Shown here piece after piece: positions 2,891-52,468 of a stretch of DNA of 64,000 bases (within the stretch, counting starts at the first letter, position 1; each line of letters opens with the position of its first letter). Source of the stretch: Candidatus Methanomethylicaceae archaeon GD_Cm_T35_P0_bin.15. Its GTDB lineage: Archaea > Thermoproteota > Methanomethylicia > Methanomethylicales > Methanomethylicaceae. Made by a program: the position numbers and the translations under genes. A model generated the notes under the pieces. That model was not told the DNA's origin. It did no database searches and saw only the letters and a list, made by a program, of their open reading frames with translations. The DNA is taken from assembly GCA_038801785.1 (NCBI GenBank), contig JAULTD010000003.1, positions 218,021 through 282,020 on the forward strand. The letters run 5' to 3'.

Positions 2891-2995
2891 TGGTGGACCG
2901 GACGGGATTTGAACCCGTGGCCTCCCGCACCCTGGTGCGGAGGCGGCTCACCCGCATTGCCAAGCGGGCGCTCTGCCAGTCTGAGCTACCGGCCC
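2891..2995 (-). tRNA. tRNA-Ala(GGC) with ~28-nt intron, CCA encoded
   Basis: Reverse complement reads GGGCCGG-TA-GCTCAGACTGGCAGAGC ... ACGGGTTCAAATCCCGT-CCGGTCC-A-CCA. G3:U70 pair is the Ala identity element. Anticodon arm CCCGC-TTGGCA[insert]-GCGGG gives GGC, with the extra ~28 nt at or next to position 37/38. Confidence 0.8.
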
Positions 2996-10363: not shown

Positions 10364-10920
10364 CGCCTCAGAACCTCTGTCCTCGGTCTAGCCATCTCCC
10401 TCGCGGTCTCTGTGTAGAGCAGATCCTCGAGCTTGAGCAGCTTCTCCCTTATGTGCTCGCCCACCTTCTCTGCCGAATAGCCGTGTTCGGTATTGTACTG
10501 CACAGTCCTGTATATACCGATCGCGCCCATCGCGTCGAGCCTGTCCGCATCGGAGAGGACCTTCGCCTCGATCGAGGTGGCGGCCCTGCCAGAGGAGAAG
10601 CTGTGCGCCATGACGGCTTCTGCCACCCGCTGGATGAAGGCGGGCTCCAGGCCCATGGGTGTCAGTACCTCCAAGGTGAACTCGGCGCTCTTACGGGCGT
10701 GATCGCGCTCATCCGATGCCCGGCCGGAGTCGTGGAGGAGGGCGGCGGCGTCGAGGATGCGTAGGTCGGCCCCTTCCCTCTCGCCTATCACCCTGCAGAG
10801 AGCCCTCACCCTCTCGACGTGCTCCCAGCCGTGGCAGCCGTTCTCGGTGAAGCGTCTCCGGCAGATCTTCTCAAGGGAGTTGTCCAAGCGTCCTGAGTTC
10901 GACATGCGGTTCCCTGCCAT
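10315..10920 (-). CDS. HD domain metal-dependent phosphohydrolase
   Basis: Contains WEHVERV ... LLHDSGR (HD motif). Confidence 0.8.
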   Translation of the reverse strand: MAGNRMSNSGRLDNSLEKICRRRFTENGCHGWEHVERVRALCRVIGEREGADLRILDAAALLHDSGRASDERDHARKSAEFTLEVLTPMGLEPAFIQRVAEAVMAHSFSSGRAATSIEAKVLSDADRLDAMGAIGIYRTVQYNTEHGYSAEKVGEHIREKLLKLEDLLYTETAREMARPRTEVLRRYLEALELEIRESSTR

Positions 10921-25176: not shown

Positions 25177-25294
25177 GGGCCTGTAGCTCAGTACGGTAGA
25201 GCGGCGGAGCTGGGCGATAACGATAGAATATAAAAAGCCCGCGCCGAGGCTCTTAACCCGTTGGCCAAGGGTTCAAATCCCTTCAGGCCCGCCA
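25177..25294 (+). tRNA. tRNA-Lys(CUU) with ~41-nt intron at a non-canonical position (about 30/31), CCA encoded
   Basis: Acceptor GGGCCTG/CAGGCCC, D arm GCTC-AGTACGGTA-GAGC, T arm AAGGG-TTCAAAT-CCCTT. Anticodon arm GCGG[41 nt]G-CTCTTAA-CCCGT forms only after removing AGCTGGGCG...GCCGAG. Confidence 0.7.
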
Positions 25295-25471: not shown

Positions 25472-26044
25472 CTATGGGCTCGTTGGTTTGCCACGCCGAG
25501 CGTTGTTTTTTGTGAAGAGGCCCTCGAGGCAGTAGACGCTGAGCTTCGCCTTTATGGGGCATTTCGGCCCAAGGTCGCACCTGGGGCAGAGCTTGGAGAC
25601 GTCGCTCACGCCAAGCGTACCCATCTGTTCGTGGAGGGAGTAGAGCAGTTTCAGGTACTTGCCCTCGGCTATCCGGGGCAGGCCGTCCCTGCCGTCCAGT
25701 GTGTACCACTCATAGAGCCTCCTGTCGCCTTTTGACGAGTTGCAGTGCTTGCAGACCCATACTGCATTGTCGACTGATTCGGGGCCGTTCCTAGATCTGG
25801 GCAATATGTGGTCGAGCGTGAGGCTTTCCCTCGCGCCGCAGTAGATGCATTCGTTGGGCTTTTCGCGTTCCTTCATGTATTCCCTGATGGAAGTCGACCA
25901 ACTGATTTCGCCGGAGGAGAGCTTCTTGAACCGGTCCATAACAAAACCATAGTTGGTCTTCCCGGTGCCAGAAGACTCCGCTATGATCTTGGCATACTGC
26001 CAGAATATGAGGTCCCTTATGCTCTTTACAGCCGGTGGTGGCAA
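25472..26044 (-). CDS. HNH endonuclease
   Basis: CIYCG...LTLDHILPRSRNGPESVDNAVWVCKHCNSSKG (HNH/His-Me finger). Confidence 0.8.
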   Translation of the reverse strand: MPPPAVKSIRDLIFWQYAKIIAESSGTGKTNYGFVMDRFKKLSSGEISWSTSIREYMKEREKPNECIYCGARESLTLDHILPRSRNGPESVDNAVWVCKHCNSSKGDRRLYEWYTLDGRDGLPRIAEGKYLKLLYSLHEQMGTLGVSDVSKLCPRCDLGPKCPIKAKLSVYCLEGLFTKNNARRGKPTSP

Positions 26045-26418
26045 TAGCGCTCACCAGCCATACTATCAGCACCCGGTATACTAAAGCAGAGCGGAGGGGC
26101 GGGCGATTTCTATACCCTCGAAAAAGCTCTGGGCGCTCCGCAAGGACGTAAAATTGTTCCCTAGTGAGGCCCTTCAGTCGGAAATGGCTTTAAATCCATC
26201 CGGTCAACCATTGTTTTACTTTATATAGCATGCTGCTTGTGAAAACGGCGGCTGCAAAACAGAGCCGCGGTTTACCGAGAAGGTTCGTTTTATGTATATT
26301 TTTATTCAGTATAGATTTAAATAGCCCGGCGATCCCTAAGGATGAGCGTCGGAGGGCGTGTCAGTGAGGGATTCTGTTTGGACGGCCTTACAAGGGAGTT
26401 TCTCCGCGAAGTAAAATA

Positions 26419-27765
26419 TTGCACTATAAGAGGATAGAATATAGAAACCCCCTAGAAATATTCTCGAGGCTTTATCGCCAGCATAAATACGCGTTCCTTT
26501 TAGAGTCGATCGAAGGTTCCAAGAAACTAGCAGAGTTCTCATTCATAGGCTTCAACCCCAAGAGAGTGATTGTGGTTAGAAGCGAAAGGCAGGGGCTTTT
26601 AGAGGGTGGCAATGGATTTGCCGCAATAAACAGTGATCCCCTGTGGCAGGTAAGGGGGGAGGTAAAAACAACCCAAATTACAGACGGGCGATTCCGCCTC
26701 GCTGGAGGGGCGGTGGGGTACATCTCGTATGATACCGTCAGATATTGGGAGAGGCTCCCCGACGCAACCATAGACGATTTTCCCCTCCCCGACGTTGAGA
26801 TGGGGATATACGACGACGGCATAGTCTTCGATCATGCCGAGAGGGAGGCCTATTACTATTACTTGGATGAGGACAGGTCGGACTGCGTGAAAAGCCTCCA
26901 AGAGCCAACCGAGGAGGGGGGCTTCTGGTTCAGCGAGCCCGAATCCAATGTGTCCAAGGATGAATTCGAACGGGCAGTTGTGAAGGCAAAGAACTACATC
27001 TCTGATGGCGATATCTTTCAGGTAGTGCTCTCGAAGAGGTATGATTTCAATGTCCGCGGTAACCTAATAAAATTCTATGAGGCGTTGCGCGAGATCAATC
27101 CATCGCCGTATATGTACTTTTTAAAGCATGGAGAGCGGCAGATTGTAGGCGCTAGTCCTGAGATGCTGATGAGGGTTGAAAATGGAACGGTGGAAACATA
27201 CCCTATCGCCGGCACGCGCCCTGTACTCGGCGAATCCGCAAGGAATAAGGCTTTGTCGGAAGAGTTGCTGGCCGACCCAAAGGAGAGGGCAGAACATGTA
27301 ATGCTAGTCGATCTGGCTAGGAACGATATCGGTAAGATCTCCGAATATGGTACAGTCTCGGTTCCCGAATTCATGATGATCCATCGGTTCAGCCATGTGC
27401 AGCACATAGTTTCGAGGGTAGTTGGTCGCCTATCGCCGGATCGCGACGCTTTCGATACGATGAAGGCCATGTTGCCAGCCGGAACGCTCTCGGGCGCACC
27501 TAAGATCAGGGCGATGGAGATCATCAATGAGCTTGAGCGGACGAAGAGAGGCCCCTACGCCGGAGCGGTAGGATACTTCTCTTACAATGGCAACGCGGAC
27601 TTTGCAATAACCATCAGAACACTGGTCGCACAGGGCGAAAGGGCGTGCATCCAAGTGGGAGCAGGGATAGTTGCAGACTCCGTGCCTGAGCGCGAGTGGT
27701 TTGAGACCGAACATAAAGCAGGTGCATTGATGGAGGCACTAAAACAGGCGTGTGAAAAGTCATGA
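26419..27765 (+). CDS. trpE: Anthranilate synthase component I
   Basis: 448 aa chorismate-binding enzyme (GDIFQVVLS, LNPSPYMYF, GTLSGAPKIRAMEII, RGPYAGAVGY). TTG start. Confidence 0.92.
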   Translation: MHYKRIEYRNPLEIFSRLYRQHKYAFLLESIEGSKKLAEFSFIGFNPKRVIVVRSERQGLLEGGNGFAAINSDPLWQVRGEVKTTQITDGRFRLAGGAVGYISYDTVRYWERLPDATIDDFPLPDVEMGIYDDGIVFDHAEREAYYYYLDEDRSDCVKSLQEPTEEGGFWFSEPESNVSKDEFERAVVKAKNYISDGDIFQVVLSKRYDFNVRGNLIKFYEALREINPSPYMYFLKHGERQIVGASPEMLMRVENGTVETYPIAGTRPVLGESARNKALSEELLADPKERAEHVMLVDLARNDIGKISEYGTVSVPEFMMIHRFSHVQHIVSRVVGRLSPDRDAFDTMKAMLPAGTLSGAPKIRAMEIINELERTKRGPYAGAVGYFSYNGNADFAITIRTLVAQGERACIQVGAGIVADSVPEREWFETEHKAGALMEALKQACEKS

Positions 27766-28352
27766 GAGTATTGCTTATCGACAATTATGATTCGTTCGTA
27801 TACAATATAGCGCAATACCTCGGCGAGCTTGGTGCCTTGGTAATGGTAAAGAGGAACGACGAGGTCTCTGTAAAGAGGATCAGGGATCTGAGCCCCGACA
27901 GGCTCATCCTGTCGCCCGGACCCGGGACGCCGACTGACAAGAGGTATTTTGGTAACTGTATGACGATCATACGGAGCAGGAACGTCAACATACCCCTCTT
28001 GGGGATATGCCTCGGCCATCAGGGGATTGCGTATGCGTTTGGGGGGGAGGTCACCCATGCAAGCAGGCTCATGCATGGAAAGACGAGCATGGTAAAACAC
28101 GATGGCAAGGGAGTCTTTAAGGGCCTACCGAATCCCTTTGAGGCTGCACGTTATCACTCGCTCGTTGTAAACCCGTTCAGTATCCCGTCCTGTCTTAGAG
28201 TGTCGGCTTACTCCTTGGGCGACTGTGAGGTCATGGGCATACGCCATACCGAACGCAGGATTGAGGGCGTCCAGTTCCACCCAGAGTCCATTCTGACGAT
28301 CCACGGCATGCATATCCTGAAGAATTTTCTTGATGGGAGTCAGTTGCAATGA
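27762..28352 (+). CDS. trpG: Anthranilate synthase component II (glutamine amidotransferase)
   Basis: Contains LLIDNYDSFVYN, GICLGHQ and HPES. ATGA start/stop overlap with trpE. Confidence 0.92.
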   Translation: MRVLLIDNYDSFVYNIAQYLGELGALVMVKRNDEVSVKRIRDLSPDRLILSPGPGTPTDKRYFGNCMTIIRSRNVNIPLLGICLGHQGIAYAFGGEVTHASRLMHGKTSMVKHDGKGVFKGLPNPFEAARYHSLVVNPFSIPSCLRVSAYSLGDCEVMGIRHTERRIEGVQFHPESILTIHGMHILKNFLDGSQLQ

Positions 28353-29419
28353 AAGAGAGTATAACCAAGCTTCTCGCAAAGCAGGATCTCACCTCCGAAG
28401 AGGCGGAGGATGTCATGAACGAAATCCTCACGGGGAAGGCTTCTGAAGTCCAAACAGCAGCGTTTCTCACAGCTCTTGGAATGAAGGGCGAGACCGTAGA
28501 AGAACTCACCGCCTTTGCTTCTGCGATGCGGAAGTGCTCCATCCGGATCCACCCCAGAGTATCGGGTACACTCGTGGACACCTGTGGCACGGGGGGCGAC
28601 CGGCTCAAGGTGTTCAACGTCAGCACAATAGCTGCCTTCATTGCAGCGGGGGCGGGGATAGCAATCGCCAAGCACGGGAATCGCTCTGTTACAAGCAGGA
28701 GTGGTAGCGCTGATGTCCTAGAAGCGCTCGGGTTTAATTTGTCCATGCCTGCCACTCTCGTAGAGAGATCGATAGAGGCGGTGGGCATAGGCTTTATGTT
28801 TGCCCCGACGTTTCATCCAGCGATGAAGAATGTGGTCGGTGTAAGACGAGAGATGGGGGTCAGAACCACCTTCAACCTCCTGGGGCCTTTGACCAACCCT
28901 GCCGGCGCTGAGGCACAGCTTCTAGGGGTATACGACGGGCGGCTGACGGAGGGTTTGGCTAAGGTGCTGCATAACCTTGGTGTCAGAAGGGCCCTTGTGG
29001 TGCACGGATTAGACGGCCTAGACGAGATCTCCACCTTAGGGCAGACTAAAGCGACGTTTCTCGAGGACGGGGATGTTTCGACGTCGTACATACGGCCAGA
29101 AGATCTCGGGGTAAGAATGTCAAAGAGAGAAGAGCTCGAAGGGTGCACGCCTGAGGAGAGCGCATTAACGGTCTTCAGGATCCTCTATGAAGGAGTGTGC
29201 TCCGGGAGGCTCGGCCCAAAGTACGAACTAGCGCTGGTAAACGCAGCCGCAGCCATCCAGCTAGGGGGCGGAGCCGGGACGGTCGCCGAGGCGATGGAGG
29301 CTGCGAGAGAGTCGATCGAGAGCGGGTCTGCGTACAAAAAGCTAGTGTCCTTGATCTCTTTCAGTGGGGGGGATTTGTCAAAATTGGAGGTATTGGAAAA
29401 CTATGGCAGATTTTCTTGA
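28349..29419 (+). CDS. trpD: Anthranilate phosphoribosyltransferase
   Basis: Contains DTCGTGGD, KHGNRSVTS.SGSADVLEALG and NLLGPLTNP. Confidence 0.92.
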   Translation: MKESITKLLAKQDLTSEEAEDVMNEILTGKASEVQTAAFLTALGMKGETVEELTAFASAMRKCSIRIHPRVSGTLVDTCGTGGDRLKVFNVSTIAAFIAAGAGIAIAKHGNRSVTSRSGSADVLEALGFNLSMPATLVERSIEAVGIGFMFAPTFHPAMKNVVGVRREMGVRTTFNLLGPLTNPAGAEAQLLGVYDGRLTEGLAKVLHNLGVRRALVVHGLDGLDEISTLGQTKATFLEDGDVSTSYIRPEDLGVRMSKREELEGCTPEESALTVFRILYEGVCSGRLGPKYELALVNAAAAIQLGGGAGTVAEAMEAARESIESGSAYKKLVSLISFSGGDLSKLEVLENYGRFS

Positions 29420-30188
29420 TTTTTTGGCCAGAGACTCTAAAGCGACTTGCGAAAGCGGCTATTACCGAGCAGACTTGAGCGGACGAGGTAAGAGACATGA
29501 AAAACTCAGCTTGAAGGAGAGTGTCCTGAAGTGTACTAATGATGCCATCATCGCAGAGATCAAGAGGTCCTCTCCGTCCGTAGGCGTGATGATGAAAGTG
29601 GCGGATGCCAAGAGTTTTTCCTCTGCAGCAGAGAGGGGGGGCGCGGCGGGGATCTCGGTTTTAACTGAGCCGAGACATTTCGGGGGCTCCTTGTGCGATC
29701 TCATGCTTGTCAGGGAAAGTGCGTCTGTTCCACTTTTGATGAAAGACATCATCGTGGATCGAACCCAAGTGGATGCAGCATCACGCATTGGTGCTGACGC
29801 CGTGCTACTCATACAGACAGTCTTCGAGAGGCGCTATGCCGACTGCAGTCTAGAGGACATGATCGATTATGTACATTCCAAGCGAATGGAAGTGTTGCTA
29901 GAGGTTCACACGAAAGAGGAGTTCCGGACTGCGATCGGTCTCGATGTTGACCTGGTGGGGATAAACAACAGGGATCTCAGGACGCTTAAAGTTGACTTGC
30001 GCACGACCGAATGGATTCTCATGGAGCACGAAGGCCTGGAACGGGTGGTGGTGAGCGAGAGCGGGATCAGATCGCGAGCAGATGTGCTCTTTCTGAGGAG
30101 TGTTGGTGCCAAGGCATTCTTGGTCGGAACGGCAATCATGTTGGCCGGAAATGTGGAGATGAAGGTGAGGGAGCTGGCGGGGGCCTGA
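29403..30188 (+). CDS. trpC: Indole-3-glycerol phosphate synthase
   Basis: Contains IAEIKRSSPS, LTEPRHFGGS and GINNRDL. ATG 29403 (MADFLDF) is preferred over the track start. Confidence 0.9.
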   Translation: MADFLDFLARDSKATCESGYYRADLSGRGKRHEKLSLKESVLKCTNDAIIAEIKRSSPSVGVMMKVADAKSFSSAAERGGAAGISVLTEPRHFGGSLCDLMLVRESASVPLLMKDIIVDRTQVDAASRIGADAVLLIQTVFERRYADCSLEDMIDYVHSKRMEVLLEVHTKEEFRTAIGLDVDLVGINNRDLRTLKVDLRTTEWILMEHEGLERVVVSESGIRSRADVLFLRSVGAKAFLVGTAIMLAGNVEMKVRELAGA

Positions 30189-30192
30189 CGGT

Positions 30193-30825
30193 GTGAAGAT
30201 CAAGATCTGTGGTATAACAAGGGAGCGGGATCTCAAGGCGGCGGTTGAAGCAGGAGCAGACTCGCTTGGGTTCGTCGTAGGCGTGCCTTCTTCCGCAAGA
30301 AATTTGACTTTCCATGAGGCTAGAGAGCTCATTGCCAAGGCCCCAGCTGATGTGAGTTGCGTGGCCGTGACGGTTTTCAGCACGGTTTGGGAGCTGGACA
30401 GGATATATGAGGCGCTGAATCCAGACTACGTCCAGTTGCATGGTAGTTTACGAAGCTTCAAGTCAACCCTTGTGCCTTCCGACCGTATAATAAAGGCTGT
30501 TGATGGGGGATCGCCCGAGGCGCTCATGGCTTCTCTGGAAGCATCGAAAATTTTCCGGTACGTACTGTTGGACACTGTCGATAGCAACGGACTTGGAGGC
30601 ACGGGTATAACTCATGATTGGATCCAGAGCCGCAGGATTAGAGACGTGATTTACCCTTCGCGATTGATACTGGCTGGAGGACTGACCCCCGAGAACGTAT
30701 GCATGGCGGCAGAGGTGGTAAAGCCGTACGGAGTTGATGTCTCGAGTGGGGTGGAGAGGAAGCCGGGGATCAAGGATCATGATAAGGTCTTCGAATTTGT
30801 CAGGAGGGCAAAGAGGGTCAAATGA
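30193..30825 (+). CDS. trpF: Phosphoribosylanthranilate isomerase
   Basis: MKIKICGIT ... GADSLGFV ... QLHG ... LAGGL ... GVDVSSGVE. Confidence 0.9.
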
Positions 30826-32021
30826 GCTTTAGAGAAGGGTGCCGATCGAAGGGGAAGTTTGGGAAATTCGGCGGCAGATTTGTCCCAGAGACGTTGGTTC
30901 CAGCACTGGATGAACTTGAGGAAGCCTATGCGAAGTTTAGAACCGATGCAGGGTTCAGGGGGAAGCTTGAGTATTATTTGAAAGAGTTCGCAGGTCGGCC
31001 CACTCCTCTCTACTTCGCTTCTAACCTCACCAAAAAACTTGGCGGGCCCAGGATCTTTCTTAAGAGGGAGGACATGGGGCATGGCGGGGCCCACAAGATA
31101 AACAACACATTGGGCCAAGCGCTTCTTGCTAAGAGCATGGGCAAGAGAAGGGTTATCGCCGAGACCGGTGCGGGACAGCATGGTGTGGCCACCGCAATGG
31201 CTTGTGCTGCGCTGGGCTTGAAGGCGGAGATCTACATGGGCAGGGAGGATATGGAGAGACAGAGGCTGAACGTCTTCAGGATGAAGCTGCTTGGTGCAGA
31301 GGTCCATGCTGTAGACTCGGGCTCCCGCACGCTGAAAGATGCTATTAATGAGTCCTTGCGCGACTGGGTGACGAATGTGAAGACGACTCACTACCTGATA
31401 GGATCGGTTGTGGGGCCGCACCCTTACCCGACAATGGTGAGGGATTTCCAGAGCGTAATCGGGCATGAGGTCAAACGGCAGATCCTTGAGAAGGAGCGGA
31501 GACTCCCGGATGCGCTAGTCGCCTGCGTGGGAGGGGGGAGCAATGCGATTGGGCTCTTCTACCCGTTCATTGAAGAACGCGGCATTCGGATGTACGGCGT
31601 GGAGGCGGGAGGGGAGGGTCTTGAGACGGGAAGACATGCTGCACCGATCTGCGCTGGCTCCGAGGGAGTATTCCACGGTATGCTGACTTATCTGATGCAG
31701 GACGAGGACGGTCAGATACTTCGGACCCACAGTATCTCTGCGGGGCTTGACTATCCTGGCGTGGGGCCCGAACATAGTTTCCTGAAGAGCATAGGCCGGG
31801 TCGAATACGATGTGGTCACAGACAGAGAGGCTCTGGAAGCATTCAGTGATCTGTCCAAGGTTGAGGGGATCATCCCGGCACTGGAGTCGTCCCATGCAGT
31901 GGCATATGCTAAGAAACTGTCAGAGAGGATGGACAGGGACGAGATCATGGTGGTAAACCTGTCTGGAAGAGGTGACAAGGACGTAGAGACGGTTTCGACG
32001 GCTATGGGGGGAGAGACATGA
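30822..32021 (+). CDS. trpB: Tryptophan synthase beta chain
   Basis: Contains [33 protein letters not shown] and GGGSNAIG. Confidence 0.95.
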
Positions 32022-32827
32022 GTATCAAGGAGACTTTCAGTAGTCTGAAGAAGCGGGGTGAAGGAGCACTTGTTGCGTACATTACGGGCGGAGATCCTAC
32101 ACCGAAATACACGTTGAGGCTTGTGGAGGCCCTCCAAAGAGGCGGAGCGGACATAATAGAAATTGGTGTGCCGTTCTCCGATCCCATAGCAGACGGCCCG
32201 ATAATACAGGCGGCGTACTGTCGTGCACTGGATGCCAGTACGACCCCCCACACCATACTCGATATCGTTGAGGATGCAAAGAGGAAGAGTGACGTGCCCA
32301 TAGTGCTGATGACGTACTACAACATTGTATATAGGAGGGGTATCAAGGAGTTCCTGACTAAAGCAAACAGGCATAAGGTCGATGGGCTAATCATACCGGA
32401 CCTCCCTGTTGAGGAGGCGGCAGACTACCAAGCAGCCGCCAATAAGGAAGGACTAAGCACGATATTCCTTGCCACACCATTGACCTCAATAAGAAGACTC
32501 AAGGTCATTCTAGAGTCTACCTCAGGCTTCCTTTACCTAGTTTCAGTACTGGGCACCACAGGGGCTAGGGATCACATTGCCAACCTGACGACCCAGACAA
32601 TAATGCGGTTTCACAGTCACACTGTTAACACCATTCCGTTGGCAGTAGGTTTTGGGATCTCGCAGCCGGAGCATGTCAAGATAGTGATAGGTTACGGTGC
32701 GGAGGCAGCCATTGTAGGCAGTGCCTTTGTGAAGAAAATTCAGGATAATTTGGGCCGCCCGATCAAAATGGTTGATGAGGTATTGGCACTAGTTCAGAGT
32801 CTTAAGGCGGCAACGCGCCCATCGTGA
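32018..32827 (+). CDS. trpA: Tryptophan synthase alpha chain
   Basis: Contains [22 protein letters not shown] and GFGIS. Start overlaps the trpB stop. Confidence 0.92.
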
Positions 32828-46991: not shown

Positions 46992-48161
46992 TCACGCCGT
47001 TGCCAGAATCGACGGGCCCTTCTTTATTGCCACGAGGGAGTCCTCTTCCCATATGAATTCGAGCCGCTGACGGTCTTCGTGCAGGCCTTTCTGGATCACT
47101 GCTCCGAATATGATGGGCAGGATTATCGTCGCTTCACCGTATACAGTCGACCTGACCGCAACTGAAGAGACCTTGCCCCACGACTTTGCCTCGTCCAAGG
47201 TGCTCCCGGACAGGCCACCCCAGTGCGGCGAGTCGGCAGTTATCTGGAAGATGTACGAATGGCCTTTGGTATAGTCGAACATCACCGCCGCGTCGTTGAT
47301 GTAATTCTTCGGCACGCCGCCACCGACATATATGGCACCGGTCTTACTTGACTTCAGCACGATCTGCCCGATCTCGAAGTTATCCTTTATCGTATCGATC
47401 ATGATCGGCGTGGCGTCTCCTGACCGCGCGTTTCGATAATGTTGGGCTATGCCTATCCCTATCGAGCTGTCGGCTATCGCGGGGCAGAAGACGGGCACAT
47501 CGTGGCAGAATGCCGAGCGGAGTATGGAATCATTGTCACTCAAGGTTCCCCCGAGCAGGTGCAAGAACTCCCGCGTAGAGTACCGCTTAGCCTCTAGCGA
47601 ATCGCAGAAGGCGGCTATGGAATCGTCGCACTTGACGAAGCCGACCTCGTCTACGTATGTGTTGTATATCCTGTTGATGTAGATGTCGTGCAGCTTTGCG
47701 TCATCTGAGGTGGGATCCCCCTGATAGTGGTCGTATCCCATCGCAGCATAGTAGTCTTGGTAAAGGATAGCGCCTGTAGAGACGACCACATCCACTATCC
47801 CGGTGGTGATCATATCACGGATAACCTTTCGTAGCCCGCCTGCGATGAGGGCGCCGGATAGACCCAGCATTATGGTGGGTCTGCTCTTGTCGGTGAGCAT
47901 ATTCTCGTAAACTTTGAAGCATTCCGCCAAGCTCCGCGACTGGATCCCGCAGTGGCTCCAAGCATCTACGAGGTCGCCGATTGTGTGTACCTGTGCAAAA
48001 TCTACCGGGCGTATCTTATCGTGCAGGAGGCTAGACCGCCTTTTTTCATCCAAGCCATGCTTGACCTTGAATTTGTGTATACATTTTTTCTTGTTACCGA
48101 TCTTGTTACCGATTTCCACATCTTCCCACCTCTTGCAAAGCATCAGGGAGTATGAACGCAC
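46992..48161 (-). CDS. dys: Deoxyhypusine synthase homolog carried inside the element (start uncertain)
   Basis: DHS motifs: TIMLGLSGALIAGGLRKVIRDMI, VDVVVSTGA, INRIYNTYV, and GGGVPKN (catalytic Lys region). Confidence 0.8.
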   Translation of the reverse strand: MRSYSLMLCKRWEDVEIGNKIGNKKKCIHKFKVKHGLDEKRRSSLLHDKIRPVDFAQVHTIGDLVDAWSHCGIQSRSLAECFKVYENMLTDKSRPTIMLGLSGALIAGGLRKVIRDMITTGIVDVVVSTGAILYQDYYAAMGYDHYQGDPTSDDAKLHDIYINRIYNTYVDEVGFVKCDDSIAAFCDSLEAKRYSTREFLHLLGGTLSDNDSILRSAFCHDVPVFCPAIADSSIGIGIAQHYRNARSGDATPIMIDTIKDNFEIGQIVLKSSKTGAIYVGGGVPKNYINDAAVMFDYTKGHSYIFQITADSPHWGGLSGSTLDEAKSWGKVSSVAVRSTVYGEATIILPIIFGAVIQKGLHEDRQRLEFIWEEDSLVAIKKGPSILATA

Positions 48162-48392
48162 GGGGCCGTCAGGTCGGATTGTTGTAGATAAAAGTGGTGA
48201 CCGCGGGCGATATCAGGCGATTTGGTGCCTGGGAAGCACAGTAACGCGCGTTAAAGTGAGGCGAATGCAGTGCGTTCTTTCCTAACGCTGTATTTTTGGT
48301 ATTTTGAACCTGCATATATAAGTTGCCTTCGACGATTGACGCAGCCTCCTCTTTGCGAGCGATGCGCCAAGGATCCCTAAACATGATGACGA

Positions 48393-49013
48393 TCAGTTCT
48401 TGTCTTTAACTACACAGAACTGATCTGATGATACGCAGAGAGGAGCTTTCCGGTATGTATTGACCATCTTGGAGCGGTCGCTCCCAGCGAGTTCGAACTT
48501 ATCGCTCATTGTAATCGCCTTCTTTGGGCAGATGTCCGCGCACTCCCTCTTGAGGACGAGGGAGCCAAGGACTTTGGCCGCCGCCTCCTGGTGCTCCTTG
48601 CCGGTGAGGACTATCCCATCGAACACTGTGACGGGGAGGGGCCTCTCGAACTTGAGCTTGTCCCTCAGGAGGGCGGGTATGTCGGAAAGCCACTGGACGT
48701 ACCGGTTGACTATGAAGATGTTGTAGCTCTTCGTGGAGCGGTCCAGCCACCCGACAGAGAAGTTGAGCCACTTCGGGGCTATCACGTACCACTCGTCAGC
48801 GCGGCGGGGGATTATGACGTAGGGCTCTTTGAGAAAGTCCTCCAGGAGGGCCGGGTCGACGTCCGATATCTTCAGGGCATCGAGCCTGGCGTCCATCTCG
48901 CTGCGGACATGCGACTGGAGCTCTTCTATGCGCTGCTTGGCCTCCTCGAGCTCGGCGAAGGTCTTAGAGACCGACTCCCTTAGGGAGGACAGGTCTAGGT
49001 TGGCGCTGGTCAT
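48393..49013 (-). CDS. Chimeric ORF: unknown coiled-coil N-terminal part fused to the 3' fragment of a NuoI/MbhN-like ferredoxin gene
   Basis: The last ~50 aa (ECADICPKKAITMSDKFELAGSDRSKMV...) parallel the C-terminus of the 63135-63536 protein (ECADICPKKVITMSDRFELAGDDRSKMV...). Similarity stops abruptly at nt 48545/48546. Confidence 0.6.
   Translation of the reverse strand: MTSANLDLSSLRESVSKTFAELEEAKQRIEELQSHVRSEMDARLDALKISDVDPALLEDFLKEPYVIIPRRADEWYVIAPKWLNFSVGWLDRSTKSYNIFIVNRYVQWLSDIPALLRDKLKFERPLPVTVFDGIVLTGKEHQEAAAKVLGSLVLKRECADICPKKAITMSDKFELAGSDRSKMVNTYRKAPLCVSSDQFCVVKDKN
48462..48545 (-). repeat. 84-nt segment homologous to 63195-63278
   Basis: Hand alignment gives 73 of 84 positions identical with no gaps. 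Weaker protein-level similarity continues to both stop codons. Confidence 0.85.
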
Positions 49014-49304: not shown

Positions 49305-49535
49305 ATGCCCAGGAAAGGCTACACCACGATTACTGTACCATCAGACCTCTACGAGCGCATCAGGGCGATGGCAGAGGATGAAAGTAGTTCAATAGCCGAC
49401 TGCCTGAGGATGGTTTTTGATGAACCTTTTTCCAAAAAGGTTCGTTTCGTAAACCGTTGGTCAGGGGTTCAAACCCCCTCTGGGGCTCCACCAACCTCAG
49501 CTATTTTCCGAGCCCGCACAGCTCCTCCCGCATAG
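49305..49535 (+). CDS. Integrase N-terminal fragment int(N) with ribbon-helix-helix-like fold; reads through attR
   Basis: MPRKGYTTITVPSDLYERIRAMAEDESSSIADCLRMVF shows an RHH-like strand-helix-helix pattern. From codon 47 the ORF is encoded by the att core and then host flank. Confidence 0.65.
   Translation: MPRKGYTTITVPSDLYERIRAMAEDESSSIADCLRMVFDEPFSKKVRFVNRWSGVQTPSGAPPTSAIFRARTAPPA
49444..49490 (+). repeat. attR (47-bp direct repeat)
   Basis: Identical to 39607-39653. The flanks diverge immediately upstream, and downstream after CCA. Confidence 0.9.
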
Positions 49536-49564: not shown

Positions 49565-52468
49565 TCATAGGGGGCGGTTCGAGAGGATCCCGCCCACGAC
49601 CTTCAGGAGCTTATCGGCGGTGAACGGCTTGGTTATGAAGGCGTTGGCTTGGTTCATCATGGGCTTGTATTTGCCGTTGTCCGCCAGCCCGCTCATGACT
49701 ATAATCCGGATCCCGGGATCGATTTTCTTGAGTGCTCTGATGGTCGCTTCGCCGCCCATTATGGGCATCGCGACGTCCAAGAGGACCGCCGCAATTTTGT
49801 TTCTGTTCGAGGTGTATACGGCGACGGCTTCGGCACCGTCGTTTGCGCTGAGCGTCCTGTAGCCGTTGTTCTCAAGAGCCATTGTGGCAGTAATCCTGAT
49901 GAGCTCCTCGTCGTCCACGACGAGTATGGTCTGGCCGCTGCCCTTGGGGAAGTCCGGGCTCCGATCCTCGGACTCTTTTCTTTGGGAGTCTGCTGGAGGC
50001 AGGTAAATCTTGAAGGTGGCGCCCTTCCCAGGCTCGCTGTATACGTTTATGAAGCCGCCGTGGCTCTTGACTATCGATCTAGACGTCGAGAGGCCCAGGC
50101 CTGTCCCTTCGCCGAGCTTCTTGGTTGTGAAGAACGGCTCGAAGAGCCTCTCCTTCACCTCGGGGGGGATGCCGAAGCCAGTGTCCGTTACAGCAATGGA
50201 CACATAGGGCCCTGCCTTGGCCTCGATATGCGTCCTCGCATAGCATTCGTCTATGAAGACGTTCTCTGCCGTGATCGTGAGGCTCCCCCCGCTGGGCATG
50301 GCGTCCCGCGCGTTCAGGCACATGTTAATCAGCACCTGGTGGAGCTGGGTGCTGTCCCCCAGAACCGCCCGGGTGTCGGGGTCTATCTCGGTGTGTATCA
50401 TGATGGACCTTGGGAAGGTCTCCTCGATGGTCTTCACCACCTCGTTTACAAGGGTGGGAACCTGTATCGGCAGCCTCACCCCCTCCACGCCCCGCGCGAA
50501 GGTCAGCATCTGTTTTGTCAGGTCTGCCCCCCGTTTGGCCTCCTTTAGGAGCATAGAGATCATCTTGTGGTCCTCCTCCTTGGTGAGGTTCTGATCCAGG
50601 AGGCTCAGGGTAAGCATTATCGGGGTCAGTATGTTGTTTATGTCGTGGGCGATCCCTCCCGCGAGCGTACCGAGGCTCTCAAGCCGCTGCGCCCTGAGGA
50701 ATTGCGCCTGGAGGTTCTTCTTCTCAGTTATGTCCGTGTTTATGTCCATTATCAGCTTTGGTTTTTTGTTTGCGTCGGAGACCAGCGTCCAGTGGCTGTC
50801 CACGATGACCTCCCGGCCGTCTTTGGTCTTATGCTTCAGCTCGCCTGACCACTCTCCCTTTTCCATGAGGATGGCCAAGGCTTCAGAGAACTGTGGCGAG
50901 TCGTTGTACAGGAGCTCCCGCATGTTCTTGTTCATGACCTCCTCGGCTTTCCACCCGTAGAGCCTCTCTGCCCCGCTGTTCCAGTAGGTTATGTTGTTGT
51001 TGAGGTCGCGGACAGTGATCGCGTCGTGTGCCTGGTTCAGCAGCTCGGCCTGTTCCCTGATCCTCTCCTCGGCGAGCTTCCGCTCCGTGACGTCCCTGGC
51101 GGCGGCGAATACCCCCTGGATCTCGTCCTTCTCGTTCCGGTATACCGTGGCGTTGTAGAGCACGTCTGTGATCCGCCCGCCCTTATGCCGGATGGCGAGC
51201 GGATAGTCCCGGACGAGGCCCTTGGTGAAGACCTGCTTGTAGCCTTCCCTCGCCTTCTCTGGCTCCGTGAAGTAGTCGCAAAAGTCGCTGCCTATCAATT
51301 TCTCACGGGGCAGCCCTGTCACAAGCTCTGTCGCTTTGTTGACGTCGGTGATCTTCCCCTCAGAGTTGATTGTGACCAATGGATCGAGGCTCGCCTCGAT
51401 GAGGTTCCTTGCGTAGAGAGAGGCGCTCCTAAGGGTCTCGCTCTTGAGCAGCGCCCGCTCCGCCTTCTTGCGCGCGGTTATGTCGCGGAAGACGACCACC
51501 ACGCCGGTGATCTCGCCGTTCTCGTCCTTTATAGGCGCCCCGCTGTCGTCTATAATTATCTGCCTCCCATCCCTCCGCACTAGGACGGTATGGTTTGCCA
51601 AGCCAACAATGGACCCTTTTTTAAGGACCTTGGCCACCGGGTCCTCGACTTTCCGACGGGTTTTCTCATCGACGATCTCAAATACTTCCGCCACCGGTCT
51701 CTGGAGGGACTCTTGCAGGCTCCATCCTGTCAGCTCCTCTGCCACGGCATTCATGAACGTTATCCTGCCTTCAAGATCAGTGGCAATAACGGCGTCGCCG
51801 ATGCTTGAGAGCGTTGTGGCCCAGCGCCGTTCGCTCTCGGCTAGCTTCCGTTCCTCCCGCTTCCGCTGGCTGGCGTCCTCGACCATGACCCACTTCTCGC
51901 CCTGCTTGATCAGGGTTCCAACGTGATTACGGACGACGTCCATAACGTCGGTGCCGCTGCATTTTGGCAGGCAGTAGGTGCATAGCGCGATTATGCGGTG
52001 TTTGCCGATGACCGCGTTTATCATTGCCTCATAGTCCACAAAGCTGTTCCATAATTTCCGCTCGACCCAGAAGGTGTTCCCTGTCAGCCGCAGCCCCTCG
52101 AAGCCGTTCTCCAGAGCTGAAGCCTCCCCTTCCTCCCAGCCCCGCAGGACGCGGTCGCAGTCGAACCTGCCTTCCTTCAGGTACCAGTCATTGAAGGAGA
52201 CTACCTCGATCTGCCCTTTCTGAAGGCACCTGTCCAGGTCGGGCACCGCTCTTCTCAGCGCTTCTTTCGCCTCCGCGACGTCCAGGGGCGGGGACGTGAC
52301 CCACATGCAGAACTCGTTGCTGCGCAGCCCCTCCGCAAAGTACGGGACGAGGATGTCGATCAGGTCCTGCTTTGTGTCGTAGAACTGGCAGAGGTGTGTT
52401 CCCCAAGGGATGGCCCCGACTAATTCTATTCCGAACTTCCGGGGAGCGCTTTGTGACGGTTGTAACAT
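49565..52468 (-). CDS. Hybrid sensor histidine kinase (MEDS - multiple PAS - HisKA - HATPase - REC)
   Basis: N-terminal MEDS pattern (HLCQFYDTKQDLIDILVPYFAEGL), at least three PAS repeats, H-box GIAHDINN, ATPase G-boxes, and a C-terminal receiver (ILVVDDEE...LLDVAMP). Confidence 0.88.
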   Translation of the reverse strand: MLQPSQSAPRKFGIELVGAIPWGTHLCQFYDTKQDLIDILVPYFAEGLRSNEFCMWVTSPPLDVAEAKEALRRAVPDLDRCLQKGQIEVVSFNDWYLKEGRFDCDRVLRGWEEGEASALENGFEGLRLTGNTFWVERKLWNSFVDYEAMINAVIGKHRIIALCTYCLPKCSGTDVMDVVRNHVGTLIKQGEKWVMVEDASQRKREERKLAESERRWATTLSSIGDAVIATDLEGRITFMNAVAEELTGWSLQESLQRPVAEVFEIVDEKTRRKVEDPVAKVLKKGSIVGLANHTVLVRRDGRQIIIDDSGAPIKDENGEITGVVVVFRDITARKKAERALLKSETLRSASLYARNLIEASLDPLVTINSEGKITDVNKATELVTGLPREKLIGSDFCDYFTEPEKAREGYKQVFTKGLVRDYPLAIRHKGGRITDVLYNATVYRNEKDEIQGVFAAARDVTERKLAEERIREQAELLNQAHDAITVRDLNNNITYWNSGAERLYGWKAEEVMNKNMRELLYNDSPQFSEALAILMEKGEWSGELKHKTKDGREVIVDSHWTLVSDANKKPKLIMDINTDITEKKNLQAQFLRAQRLESLGTLAGGIAHDINNILTPIMLTLSLLDQNLTKEEDHKMISMLLKEAKRGADLTKQMLTFARGVEGVRLPIQVPTLVNEVVKTIEETFPRSIMIHTEIDPDTRAVLGDSTQLHQVLINMCLNARDAMPSGGSLTITAENVFIDECYARTHIEAKAGPYVSIAVTDTGFGIPPEVKERLFEPFFTTKKLGEGTGLGLSTSRSIVKSHGGFINVYSEPGKGATFKIYLPPADSQRKESEDRSPDFPKGSGQTILVVDDEELIRITATMALENNGYRTLSANDGAEAVAVYTSNRNKIAAVLLDVAMPIMGGEATIRALKKIDPGIRIIVMSGLADNGKYKPMMNQANAFITKPFTADKLLKVVGGILSNRPL

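What the first reader, a model, noticed from the sequence alone, without database searches (positions are those of the whole stretch)
46992..48161. Deoxyhypusine synthase homolog encoded inside a mobile element
The ORF has clear DHS motifs, including the GGGVPKN lysine region. It lies within the att-bounded element and shares the cargo's lower G+C. DHS normally modifies aIF5A and is a core single-copy gene. An element-borne copy could be a second, xenologous DHS that manipulates host translation, as some viral hypusination genes do. It could be a homospermidine-synthase-like enzyme. If it is the only copy, it is an essential gene trapped on an excisable element.
Basis: partly seen in the sequence, partly recalled or inferred. 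Interest (0 to 1): 0.6.

Follow-up and report, generated by a model that had tools for sequence, protein, structure and literature searches.

The report
Spare deoxyhypusine synthase inside integrated element
A methanogen-related archaeon keeps the second, dispensable copy of its deoxyhypusine synthase gene inside a small integrated mobile element, while the ordinary copy sits elsewhere in the genome, so this is host-gene capture and not a trapped essential gene or a viral trick.

Summary
ORF 46992-48161(-) is a full-length deoxyhypusine synthase (DHS) family gene (Pfam DS, E=8e-91). It lies between a 47-nt exact direct repeat: the 3' part of tRNA-Thr(CGT) at 39607-39653 and its copy at 49444-49490. 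An intact tyrosine integrase sits beside the tRNA.

Methanomethylicales genomes carry two DHS paralogs.
- Clade B is slower-evolving and sits at a conserved housekeeping locus.
- Clade A is faster-evolving and accessory. It normally sits between RpiA and tRNA-Thr(TGT), next to the tRNA-Thr(CGT) integration hotspot.

The window's gene is a clade A member (100% bootstrap) that has kept its own 5' region. Its ancestral slot in the window (59.8-62.1 kb) is empty. A fragment of a nuoI gene fused to an element ORF marks one junction. This points to capture of the DHS-A cassette by illegitimate recombination.

The same organism very probably keeps DHS-B (P0037). It comes from the same metagenome, tracks the organism's depth in three runs, and has host-like G+C.

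The catalytic lysine is in SWGK, not in GGGVPKN. Whether the enzyme modifies aIF5A or makes a polyamine is unresolved. No excision was seen.

The parts
39577..39653 (+). tRNA-Thr(CGT). Its last 47 nt (39607-39653) form the left att repeat (attL core).
   Evidence: ARAGORN; Rfam tRNA 67 bits; exact 47-nt repeat
39726..40538 (+). Intact tyrosine integrase (270 aa) of the element.
   Evidence: Pfam PF00589 and PF16795. PHROG integrase E=1e-19. Full-length homologs at 62-66% sit beside tRNA-Thr genes in Methanosuratincola. Population variants keep the ORF open, 6 synonymous to 9 conservative changes.
40587..46731 (.). Low-G+C cargo. Three predicted secreted or membrane proteins of unknown function (40587-41168, 41225-42457, 42417-43709, all -). 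Two HTH(DUF7347)-transmembrane paralogs (43960-44943 -, 45901-46731 +). One 238-aa ORF (45015-45731 +).
   Evidence: ORFs; Pfam DUF7347/HTH_20 hits only; no PHROG function; GC3 0.48-0.75; an HTH-DUF7347 homolog sits next to an integrase remnant at tRNA-Thr(CGT) in L020
46992..48161 (-). DHS-family gene, clade A paralog. Likely start 48143. Catalytic Lys in SWGK at 47172-47183. GGGVPKN at 47304-47324 (aligns with human K287-H288, with H replaced by N).
   Evidence: Pfam DS E=8e-91; homologs; active-site alignment; trees; N-termini
48162..48342 (-). Native 5' flank of DHS-A that moved with the gene. It is conserved with the region upstream of DHS-A in relatives.
   Evidence: blastn: homology to L002/L003 runs 47026-48342, and 48267/48280-48342 matches L006, L004 and L005
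48393..49013 (-). Fusion ORF (206 aa). The N-terminal ~150 aa belong to an element-type protein family. The C-terminal ~50 aa are a copy of the 3' end of a nuoI gene (48462-48545, 87% identical to 63195-63278). This is the junction scar.
   Evidence: Repeat D2; blastn. Homolog search: P0122-P0128 match only the N-terminal part, and P0129 (Fer4/NuoI-like) matches only the C-terminal part.
49305..49535 (+). Small ribbon-helix-helix-like ORF reading across attR. It is the conserved right end of this element family.
   Evidence: Weak RHH_1/RHH_5 hits below Pfam cut-offs. Homologs lie beside att remnants in L002/L003, L021 and L027.
49444..49490 (+). Right att repeat (attR core), of the CGT type.
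59072..62152 (.). Ancestral DHS-A slot, now empty: RpiA (59072-59764 +), an MFS transporter of low G+C (60048-61232 -), an intron-containing tRNA (61574-61684 -), and tRNA-Thr(TGT) (62076-62152 +).
   Evidence: Relatives have RpiA-DHS-tRNA-Thr(TGT) here. No DHS remnant is present. Pfam MFS_1. Rfam tRNA.
63135..63536 (-). Chromosomal nuoI-like gene. Its 3' end is the source type of the fragment fused in the element.
   Evidence: Repeat D2; blastn 87% over 84 nt; ORF translation with two 4Fe-4S motifs

Best explanation
**What the gene is.** It encodes a complete DHS-family enzyme: NAD-dependent, acting through a lysine-imine intermediate, and transferring an aminobutyl-type group. It belongs to clade A, the faster-evolving and dispensable one of two DHS paralogs in Methanomethylicales.

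**Where it normally sits, and where it sits here.** Clade A normally lies on the chromosome between RpiA and tRNA-Thr(TGT). That slot borders a hotspot where one family of integrase elements inserts into either tRNA-Thr gene. In this genome the DHS-A cassette (the gene plus about 200 nt of its own 5' flank) was joined into such an element by illegitimate recombination. A nuoI fragment was left as a scar, and the chromosomal slot no longer holds the gene. The donor was either this chromosome or, somewhat more likely, a related Methanomethylicaceae genome.

**Consequences.** The element (about 9.9 kb) sits in tRNA-Thr(CGT) as a single-copy insertion, and the sampled populations all share it. The conserved clade B paralog remains at its housekeeping locus and presumably modifies aIF5A. 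The element-borne copy is therefore an accessory gene that would leave with the element if the integrase ever excised it.

**Shown and inferred.**
- Shown: family membership, clade, location, empty slot, junction scar, and single-copy state.
- Strongly inferred: that B is in the same genome.
- Inferred: the capture route, the donor, and the substrate.
For: **Family and active site.**
- Pfam DS at E=8e-91.
- K329, W327, E323, K287 and D238 equivalents are kept.
- The K-N state at 287-288 is the majority state among prokaryotic DHS-family representatives.

**Two paralogs.**
- A and B occur in the same assemblies: GCA_038801705, GCA_014361455 and GCA_016882195. Methanomethylicus also has both.
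- Each clade has 100% bootstrap support.
- B is closer to the Nitrososphaerales outgroup (64-66% vs 56-62%). It is more conserved between the same genome pairs (77-78% vs 67-71%).
- There are 5 A-specific fixed changes and 0 B-specific ones.

**A is dispensable.** Methanosuratincola L027 and L028 lack it at the slot (no DHS hit in either locus), while the closely related L002 has it (host proteins 75-92% identical).

**Own B copy.**
- P0037 is on a contig of the same JGI metagenome as the window-identical contig, with B-locus synteny and GC3 0.78.
- Contigs matching it exactly track the window organism's depth in three runs: 24.6 vs 27.3, 14.2 vs 16.2, and 2.8 vs about 4-6.

**Element.** The same family occurs at tRNA-Thr(CGT) in L002, L008, L020, L021 and L027, and at tRNA-Thr(TGT) in L028. 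L028 also shows an empty CGT site.

**Capture.**
- The native 5' flank is kept.
- The nuoI'-e206 fusion marks a junction.
- The ancestral slot is empty.

**Hint of a related donor.**
- GC3 is 0.69 against a host value of about 0.80.
- WIN-A groups with L002-A at 95-98%, while B and the host genes weakly group WIN with L009.
- The A-minus-B identity is +3.4 for WIN-L002, against -6 to -11 for pairs without WIN.

**Population.** The element interior forms one contig at the same depth as its flanks, in independent metagenomes.
Against: - The capture route cannot be reconstructed step by step. No sampled relative has DHS-A adjacent to nuoI.
- The host-gene and clade B trees are weakly resolved (39-77% bootstrap). 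The evidence for a foreign donor is therefore only suggestive.
- Low GC3 also occurs in a trp operon of the window, so it is not a safe marker of foreign origin.
- Placing B in the same genome rests on co-occurrence, depth and composition, not on a closed genome.
- No expression data were obtained for either paralog in this organism.
- No excision products or empty sites were seen. The data are assembler contigs, which drop rare forms.
- The substrate is untested. All NCBIfam equivalog scores are below cut-off.
Confidence: 0.65

Rival explanations
1. The att-bounded stretch is a dead, fixed genomic island and not a unit that still carries cargo. Repeated integrations and rearrangements at the two tRNA-Thr genes shuffled chromosomal DNA, DHS-A included, between att remnants. 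The integrase no longer moves anything.
For: - The region is highly plastic in every relative: integrase pseudogenes and att remnants occur in L002, L003, L008, L009 and L020.
- The element has no replication or structural genes.
- Depth equals that of the flanks, and no empty-site or circle joints appear in four metagenomes.
- Integrase variants between populations show many amino-acid changes, 9 of 15.
Against: - The integrase ORF is intact in all variants, whereas relatives show frameshifted remnants.
- The att repeats are 47/47 identical, with no internal att remnant.
- Both conserved ends of the family (Int and RHH-attR) are present, as in the intact L027 element.
Confidence: 0.2
2. The element-borne enzyme is not an aIF5A-modifying DHS. 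It is a polyamine synthase of the SpeY/CdmS or DHS-like homospermidine synthase kind. It would couple agmatine or putrescine units, and clade B alone would hypusinate aIF5A.
For: - The second-best NCBIfam model is the agmatine-homocoupling enzyme NF002699, at 296 bits.
- Residues at human D243 and D316 are hydrophobic (I, L), as in Thermus CdmS (F204, L286; PMC10981699; alignment).
- A pyruvoyl arginine decarboxylase gene lies near the A slot in L002, and ORFs reading as the same enzyme lie there in L009 and L027.
- A is accessory and faster-evolving.
- PMC13625781 raises the open question of whether archaea have both agmatine- and spermidine-dependent DHS forms.
Against: - The same I/L residues and all other active-site positions examined (human-numbered) are identical in clade B and in the Nitrososphaerales homologs. 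Nothing at the active site separates A from B.
- L at D316 is also found in the Sulfolobus-type DHS 8put.
- The NF002699 score is far below its cut-off of 500, and the best model is a DHS model, NF002006.
- The arginine decarboxylase gene stays in place in L027, which lacks A.
Confidence: 0.25
3. It is a xenologous DHS brought in by a virus-like element to manipulate host translation, or it is the only DHS of the cell, trapped on an excisable element.
For: - The gene is inside an integrase element with lower G+C than the host.
- No other DHS is present in the 64-kb window.
Against: - The gene is in the lineage's own clade A and keeps its native flank.
- A B paralog is traced to the same organism.
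- A is absent from healthy relatives.
- The element has no viral hallmark genes, and its proteins find no relatives in viral contigs.
- No DHS was found in viruses (PMC9992855).
Confidence: 0.05

Closest known systems
Archaeal deoxyhypusine synthase (solved structures 8put and 7cmc; NCBIfam NF002006 type)
   Same: Same Pfam DS fold family. The catalytic Lys (human K329), W327, E323, K287 and D238 equivalents are conserved. Length is similar.
   Different: Only about 30% identical to solved archaeal DHS. H288 is N, D313 is W and E137 is Q. These states are shared with most prokaryotic relatives but not with the characterised enzymes. The score is below every NCBIfam equivalog cut-off. It is a second, accessory copy.
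Haloferax volcanii pair HVO_2297 (chromosomal DHS) and HVO_B0182 (second DHS-family gene on replicon pHV3)
   Same: An archaeon with two DHS-family genes, the second on a non-core replicon and of unknown role (PMC5178350). Haloarchaeal megaplasmid hits were found.
   Different: There the carrier is a 438-kb megaplasmid, not a 10-kb integrase element. Those genes are only about 30% identical to this one. Here the two paralogs are sister clades from a duplication within the order.
Bacterial SpeY/CdmS (DHS homolog that couples two agmatines; NF002699)
   Same: DHS fold, conserved catalytic Lys, and hydrophobic residues at human D243 and D316 (PMC10981699).
   Different: The score of 296 is below the cut-off of 500. 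No agmatinase or iminohydrolase partner is seen next to it. The same residues occur in the presumed housekeeping clade B.
Trypanosomatid DHS heterotetramer of two paralogs (PMC3663545; PDB 6dft)
   Same: Two DHS paralogs in one cell.
   Different: There one paralog is catalytically dead. Here both keep all the catalytic residues compared, and A is absent in some relatives.
Archaeal tRNA-integrating elements with an intact (non-split) tyrosine integrase, and host-gene pick-up as in specialised transduction
   Same: Integrase next to a complete tRNA gene, a direct repeat of the tRNA 3' part at the far end, deviating composition, and empty and occupied sites among relatives.
   Different: No replication, conjugation or virion genes were recognised. 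The picked-up gene is a translation-factor-modifying or polyamine enzyme, which I found in no phage record and otherwise only on megaplasmids.

Membership tests
Deoxyhypusine synthase family (Pfam PF01916) | Full-length DS domain above the curated cut-off | tested here: met
   304.7 bits against a cut-off of 27; profile positions 1-286 of 288
Deoxyhypusine synthase family (Pfam PF01916) | Catalytic lysine that forms the enzyme-imine intermediate (human K329) | tested here: met
   K in SWGK, window 47172-47183. The role of K329 is as cited in PMC10981699.
Deoxyhypusine synthase family (Pfam PF01916) | Substrate and NAD residues of the characterised enzymes (human E137, D243, H288, D313, D316, E323, W327, D342; roles from my own knowledge of the mutagenesis literature) | tested here: inconclusive
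   E323, W327, D238 and K287 are kept. E137Q, D243I, H288N, D313W, D316L and D342E are changed. The same states occur in clade B, in Nitrososphaerales, and in most of the 150 representatives. They therefore mark a subfamily and are not evidence of decay.
Functional DHS (aIF5A deoxyhypusination, NCBIfam equivalogs) | Score above an equivalog cut-off | tested here: not met
   Best is NF002006 at 345.6 against 434; TIGR00321 at 268.5 against 304
Functional DHS (aIF5A deoxyhypusination, NCBIfam equivalogs) | Transfers an aminobutyl group to the conserved lysine of aIF5A | not testable with these tools
   Needs an enzyme assay. There is no aIF5A gene in the window (motif scan).
SpeY/CdmS agmatine-homocoupling enzymes (NF002699) | Equivalog score; gene cluster with arginine decarboxylase and an agmatinase or iminohydrolase | tested here: not met
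   296 against 500. No such partner lies in the element. An arginine decarboxylase gene is near the slot in relatives, but it also stays there in a genome without A.
tRNA-integrating tyrosine-integrase element | Integrase gene beside an intact tRNA, with a direct repeat of the tRNA 3' part bounding the insert | tested here: met
tRNA-integrating tyrosine-integrase element | Occupied and empty sites among related genomes | tested here: met
   L028 has an empty tRNA-Thr(CGT) site and an integrase at tRNA-Thr(TGT). L027 has an intact 6.3-kb element at CGT.
tRNA-integrating tyrosine-integrase element | Excision or circular form | tested here: inconclusive
   No empty-site or circle joints appear in the contigs of four runs. 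The raw-read run had no coverage. Contigs drop rare forms.
Trypanosomatid-type DHS with a dead regulatory paralog | One paralog lacks the catalytic residues | tested here: not met
   Both clades keep every catalytic residue compared

The most novel reading that the evidence does not exclude
Clade A is a mobile, accessory DHS lineage. It shuttles among Methanomethylicales on the integrase elements that target the two tRNA-Thr genes. This would explain three things: why it always lies beside those tRNAs, why it is present or absent within a genus, and why it is compositionally odd in two lineages and mildly so in a third. On this reading it gives its host a second donor specificity (for example agmatine versus spermidine), or a polyamine product. 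It would be the first DHS carried by a small mobile element, and a natural test case for the question of whether archaea have both agmatine- and spermidine-dependent DHS forms.
Probability: 0.2. Interest if true: 0.65.

Novelty: new variant of a known kind. Interest (0 to 1): 0.45.

Why it matters
- **Gene content.** A gene usually treated as a single-copy core marker of archaeal translation is duplicated in a whole order of methanogen-related archaea. One copy behaves as an accessory gene that can be lost, moved, or picked up by an integrative element. This matters for genome annotation and for the use of marker genes.
- **Element biology.** It is relevant to how tRNA-targeting elements reshape neighbouring chromosomal DNA.
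- **Biochemistry.** A recent paper asked whether archaea hold both agmatine- and spermidine-dependent DHS enzymes (PMC13625781). The A/B pair gives two closely related proteins to compare directly.

Tried and rejected
- **Viral-contig scans.** I scanned with the integrase, the 430-aa cargo protein and the fusion ORF. No relatives were found.
- **Genome and metagenome scans with the DHS.** These gave only 5 and 4 loci. None was closer than 77%, and the window's own genome was not retrievable.
- **Laying a relative's B locus on the runs.** I traced B instead through partial matches to the window's own gene.
- **RNA runs.** One is effectively DNA-like with flat low coverage. The oil-field metatranscriptomes hold only a B-type transcript of another organism. 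There is therefore no expression evidence.
- **Raw-read run X22.** There was no coverage, so there is no read-level test of excision.
- **H288N as a sign of inactivity.** Rejected, because N is the majority state among prokaryotic representatives.
- **Assembly artefact.** Rejected. The same order is assembled independently in a JGI contig spanning both junctions and in contigs from several runs.
- **The apparent 8.8-kb 'joint' 39663>48462.** This comes from the tRNA-Thr(TGT)-nuoI contig matching two short similar stretches. It is not an excision.
- **A purely att-by-att recombination route from the ancestral order.** I tried to derive one. None fits, because both DHS junctions lie away from the att sites.
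Full report
**1. The observation.**
- ORF 46992-48161 on the minus strand is real: 389 aa from the first GTG.
- It matches Pfam DS (PF01916) over almost the whole profile, E=8.2e-91.
- Its best solved relatives are archaeal and eukaryotic deoxyhypusine synthases (8put E=7e-33, 7cmc, human 1rlz).
- Comparison of N-termini shows that KRWEDVEIGNK is conserved with Methanomethylicus orthologs. The likeliest start is therefore ATG 48143; the public call uses GTG 48119.

**2. The element.**
- tRNA-Thr(CGT) lies at 39577-39653 (Rfam). It is followed at 39726-40538 by an intact 270-aa tyrosine integrase (Pfam PF00589/PF16795; PHROG integrase E=1e-19).
- The last 47 nt of the tRNA (39607-39653) recur exactly at 49444-49490. 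That copy carries the two bases that distinguish the CGT tRNA from the TGT tRNA at 62076-62152.
- Between the repeats lie, in order:
  - three predicted secreted or membrane ORFs;
  - two HTH(DUF7347)-membrane paralogs;
  - a 238-aa ORF;
  - the DHS gene;
  - a 206-aa ORF;
  - a small RHH-like ORF that reads across attR.
- No replication, conjugation or virion genes were recognised.
- Most cargo genes have GC3 of 0.48-0.63, against about 0.80 for host genes. DHS is intermediate at 0.686.

**3. What kind of DHS it is.**
- The nearest proteins come from Methanomethylicia ('Verstraetearchaeota'). One is 79% identical, a few are 70-77%, and many are 63-70%. Nitrososphaerales follow at about 60%.
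- I aligned against the human enzyme. The sequence was recalled from memory, but its numbering reproduces all published residue numbers.
  - The catalytic lysine K329 lies in SWGK (47172-47183).
  - W327, E323, K287 and D238 are also kept.
  - H288 is N, D313 is W, D316 is L, D243 is I, E137 is Q and D342 is E.
- These changes are not peculiar to the element copy. They are identical in both Methanomethylicia clades, in Nitrososphaerales and in a Nitrospinales bacterium.
- K-N at 287-288 is the majority state among the top 150 representatives of the family. These include Bathyarchaeia and Hydrothermarchaeaceae proteins.
- No NCBIfam equivalog cut-off is reached. The best is the DHS model NF002006, at 346 against 434. 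Second is the agmatine-homocoupling enzyme NF002699, at 296 against 500.

**4. Two paralogs, and which one this is.**
- The homologs split into two clades, each with 100% bootstrap support. Together they are sister to the Nitrososphaerales.
- Clade B (360-373 aa in the sampled set) sits at a conserved locus between GHMP kinase/PALP genes and an NAD-synthase-like gene, TYW2 and a T2SSE ATPase.
- Clade A (375-416 aa as called; 375-391 for the members traced here) includes the window's gene.
- Three assemblies hold one of each:
  - GCA_038801705 (P0002 and P0027);
  - GCA_014361455;
  - GCA_016882195 (L009 and P0015).
  - Methanomethylicus also has both.
- B is the conservative copy.
  - Between the same genome pairs, B is 77-78% identical and A is 67-71%.
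  - Against the outgroup, B is 64-66% and A is 56-62%.
  - There are 5 fixed A-specific changes and no B-specific ones. None is at a catalytic position.
- A is dispensable. Methanosuratincola petrocarbonis (L027) and a second Methanosuratincola MAG (L028) have no DHS between RpiA and tRNA-Thr(TGT), and no DHS hit anywhere in either locus. The closely related L002 (host proteins 75-92% identical) has a 1.57-kb DHS-A cassette there.

**5. The window organism has its own B copy.**
- When the window's DHS was laid on metagenome contigs at 80% likeness, a second DHS gene appeared.
- Its depth follows that of the window organism:
  - 24.6 against 27.3 in X1, where it is on a 61-kb contig;
  - 14.2 against 16.2 in X2;
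  - 2.8 against about 4-6 in X3.
- The unmatched ends of those contigs are identical to the DHS-B gene P0037. This gene is on contig JGI12104J13512_1004007, from the same JGI metagenome (3300001095) as the contig that is identical to the window.
- That contig has the B-locus gene order, G+C of 0.61, and a DHS-B GC3 of 0.78. All of this is host-like.
- The window itself holds no second DHS and no aIF5A motif.

**6. Where the gene belongs, and how it got here.**
- In seven distinct relatives (nine loci fetched) the order is tRNA-Thr(TGT), DHS-A, RpiA, MscL..., tRNA-Thr(CGT), ThiL, radical-SAM.
- The window keeps radical-SAM, ThiL, tRNA-Thr(CGT), RpiA (59072-59764) and tRNA-Thr(TGT) (62076-62152). 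The slot between RpiA and tRNA-Thr(TGT) now holds a low-G+C MFS transporter and an intron-containing tRNA, with no DHS remnant.
- The same element family occupies tRNA-Thr(CGT) in several relatives. It has an integrase at one end and RHH-attR at the other.
  - It is intact in L027.
  - It is decayed in L002/L003, L008, L020 and L021.
  - In every case where the locus includes a DHS-A, that gene lies outside the element.
- In L028 the integrase sits at tRNA-Thr(TGT) instead, and the CGT site is empty.
- In L009, DHS-A lies on the 3' side of tRNA-Thr(TGT), next to an att remnant. Its GC3 is 0.51, against 0.79-0.83 for the host.
- In the window, homology to the relatives' DHS-A locus runs from just inside the stop codon up to 48342. 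It therefore includes about 200 nt of native 5' flank.
- About 120 nt further on, 48462-48545 is an 87% copy of the 3' end of the chromosomal nuoI gene (63195-63278). It is fused in frame to the first ~150 codons of an element-type ORF. The free-standing homologs of that ORF lack this tail.
- Both junctions lie away from the att sites. The cassette was therefore joined in by illegitimate recombination, not by the integrase.
- I could not derive a stepwise path. No sampled genome has DHS-A next to nuoI.

**7. Own copy or a relative's copy?**
- The window's gene is sister to L002's at 95-98% bootstrap. Clade B and two host proteins group the window weakly with L009 instead (39-54%, with Mmeth+Msur at 77%).
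- A-minus-B identity is:
  - +3.4 for window-L002 and +0.1 for window-Methanomethylicus;
  - -8.9 for window-L009;
  - -6 to -11 for the three pairs without the window.
- Together with the lower GC3 and the 13% divergence of the nuoI fragment, this favours import from a related Methanomethylicaceae genome, followed by loss of the native copy. The support is modest, however.
- A trp operon in the window is equally low in GC3.

**8. Population state.**
- The 45-50 kb stretch is held almost word for word in oil-field, sediment, soil and sludge metagenomes.
- In X1 the element interior is one contig (39626-49287) at depth 27.3, against 29.7 and 27.5 for the flanks.
- The DHS part is identical in X2 and X4. 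The integrase part differs by about 2-3%, with the ORF kept open.
- No empty-site or circle joint was seen. These are assembler contigs, though, and the one raw-read run had no coverage.

**9. How it most likely works.**
- The protein has everything a DHS-family enzyme needs for the lysine-imine mechanism.
- Nothing at the active site separates it from clade B. My best reading is therefore a working enzyme with the same chemistry as B, kept as an accessory copy.
- Its physiological acceptor (aIF5A or a free amine) and its donor (spermidine or agmatine) remain open.
- Physically it would leave with the element if the integrase recombined attL and attR. The cell would still have B.

**10. Comparison with known cases.**
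- Two DHS-family genes in one archaeon, the second on a secondary replicon, are known from Haloferax volcanii (PMC5178350).
- DHS homologs occur on 24 megaplasmid records. They occur in none of 50,697 phage records.
- A virus-wide screen found no DHS (PMC9992855).
- Bacterial SpeY/CdmS shows that DHS homologs can be agmatine-coupling polyamine synthases (PMC10981699 and PMC13625781).
- The trypanosomatid dead-paralog model does not fit, because both copies keep the catalytic residues.

**11. Verdict.**
- This is a real and correctly located observation.
- The 'xenologous manipulator' and 'trapped essential gene' readings are not supported.
- What is there is an accessory DHS paralog of the lineage, captured by one of the integrase elements that crowd its native neighbourhood.
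- Interest is moderate. Two things appear to be undescribed: the paralog pair, and the carriage of one copy on a small mobile element.

Noticed in passing
window 26368-32827 (with 25177-25291 and 25472-26050): A complete trp operon (trpE, G, D, C, F, B, A by Pfam) has GC3 of 0.55-0.65, against about 0.80 for its neighbours. It lies just after an intron-containing tRNA and an HNH endonuclease gene. It may be a second acquired block.
   Followed up: partly
window 2894-2995(-), 25177-25291(+), 61574-61684(-): Rfam finds three intron-containing tRNA genes that ARAGORN, run in its default mode, missed.
   Followed up: partly
window 61946-62015: Four to five tandem copies of a 14-nt unit (AACCGCAGGGATAG) lie just upstream of tRNA-Thr(TGT).
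   Followed up: no
window 44650-44812 vs 45921-46083: The two HTH(DUF7347)-membrane genes of the element are diverged paralogs in opposite orientation. They share an inverted repeat of 74% over 163 nt.
   Followed up: no
window 41214-42410: A minority variant lacking 1195 nt inside the 410-aa cargo gene is present in two unrelated metagenomes (X2 and X4).
   Followed up: no
window 39694-40405: The integrase end of the element differs by about 2-3% between populations. The JGI contig's integrase is 97% identical. The DHS end is identical between the same populations, which suggests a mosaic history within the element.
   Followed up: partly
L009 9239-12701: In the M_DeepCast MAG, DHS-A sits on the 3' side of tRNA-Thr(TGT), right after an att remnant (10599-10654) and a very low-G+C 586-aa membrane-protein gene. 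Its own GC3 is 0.51, in a host at 0.79-0.83. This may be a second element-associated DHS-A.
   Followed up: partly
L027 9864-16209; L028 9813-10768: Methanosuratincola petrocarbonis carries an intact 6.3-kb element of the same family at tRNA-Thr(CGT). A sister MAG has the same type of integrase at tRNA-Thr(TGT) and an empty CGT site. Both loci lack DHS-A.
   Followed up: yes
window 47451-47492 (runs X26-X28): The oil-field metatranscriptomes contain a clade-B-type DHS transcript from another organism. It is on contigs of very high depth (1400-6300), which hints that B is well expressed in a related methanogen.
   Followed up: no
window 49565-52468: A 967-aa MEDS-PAS histidine kinase/response-regulator hybrid gene ends 75 nt from attR. 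The block from here to 59 kb is absent from the corresponding region of all relatives examined.
   Followed up: no
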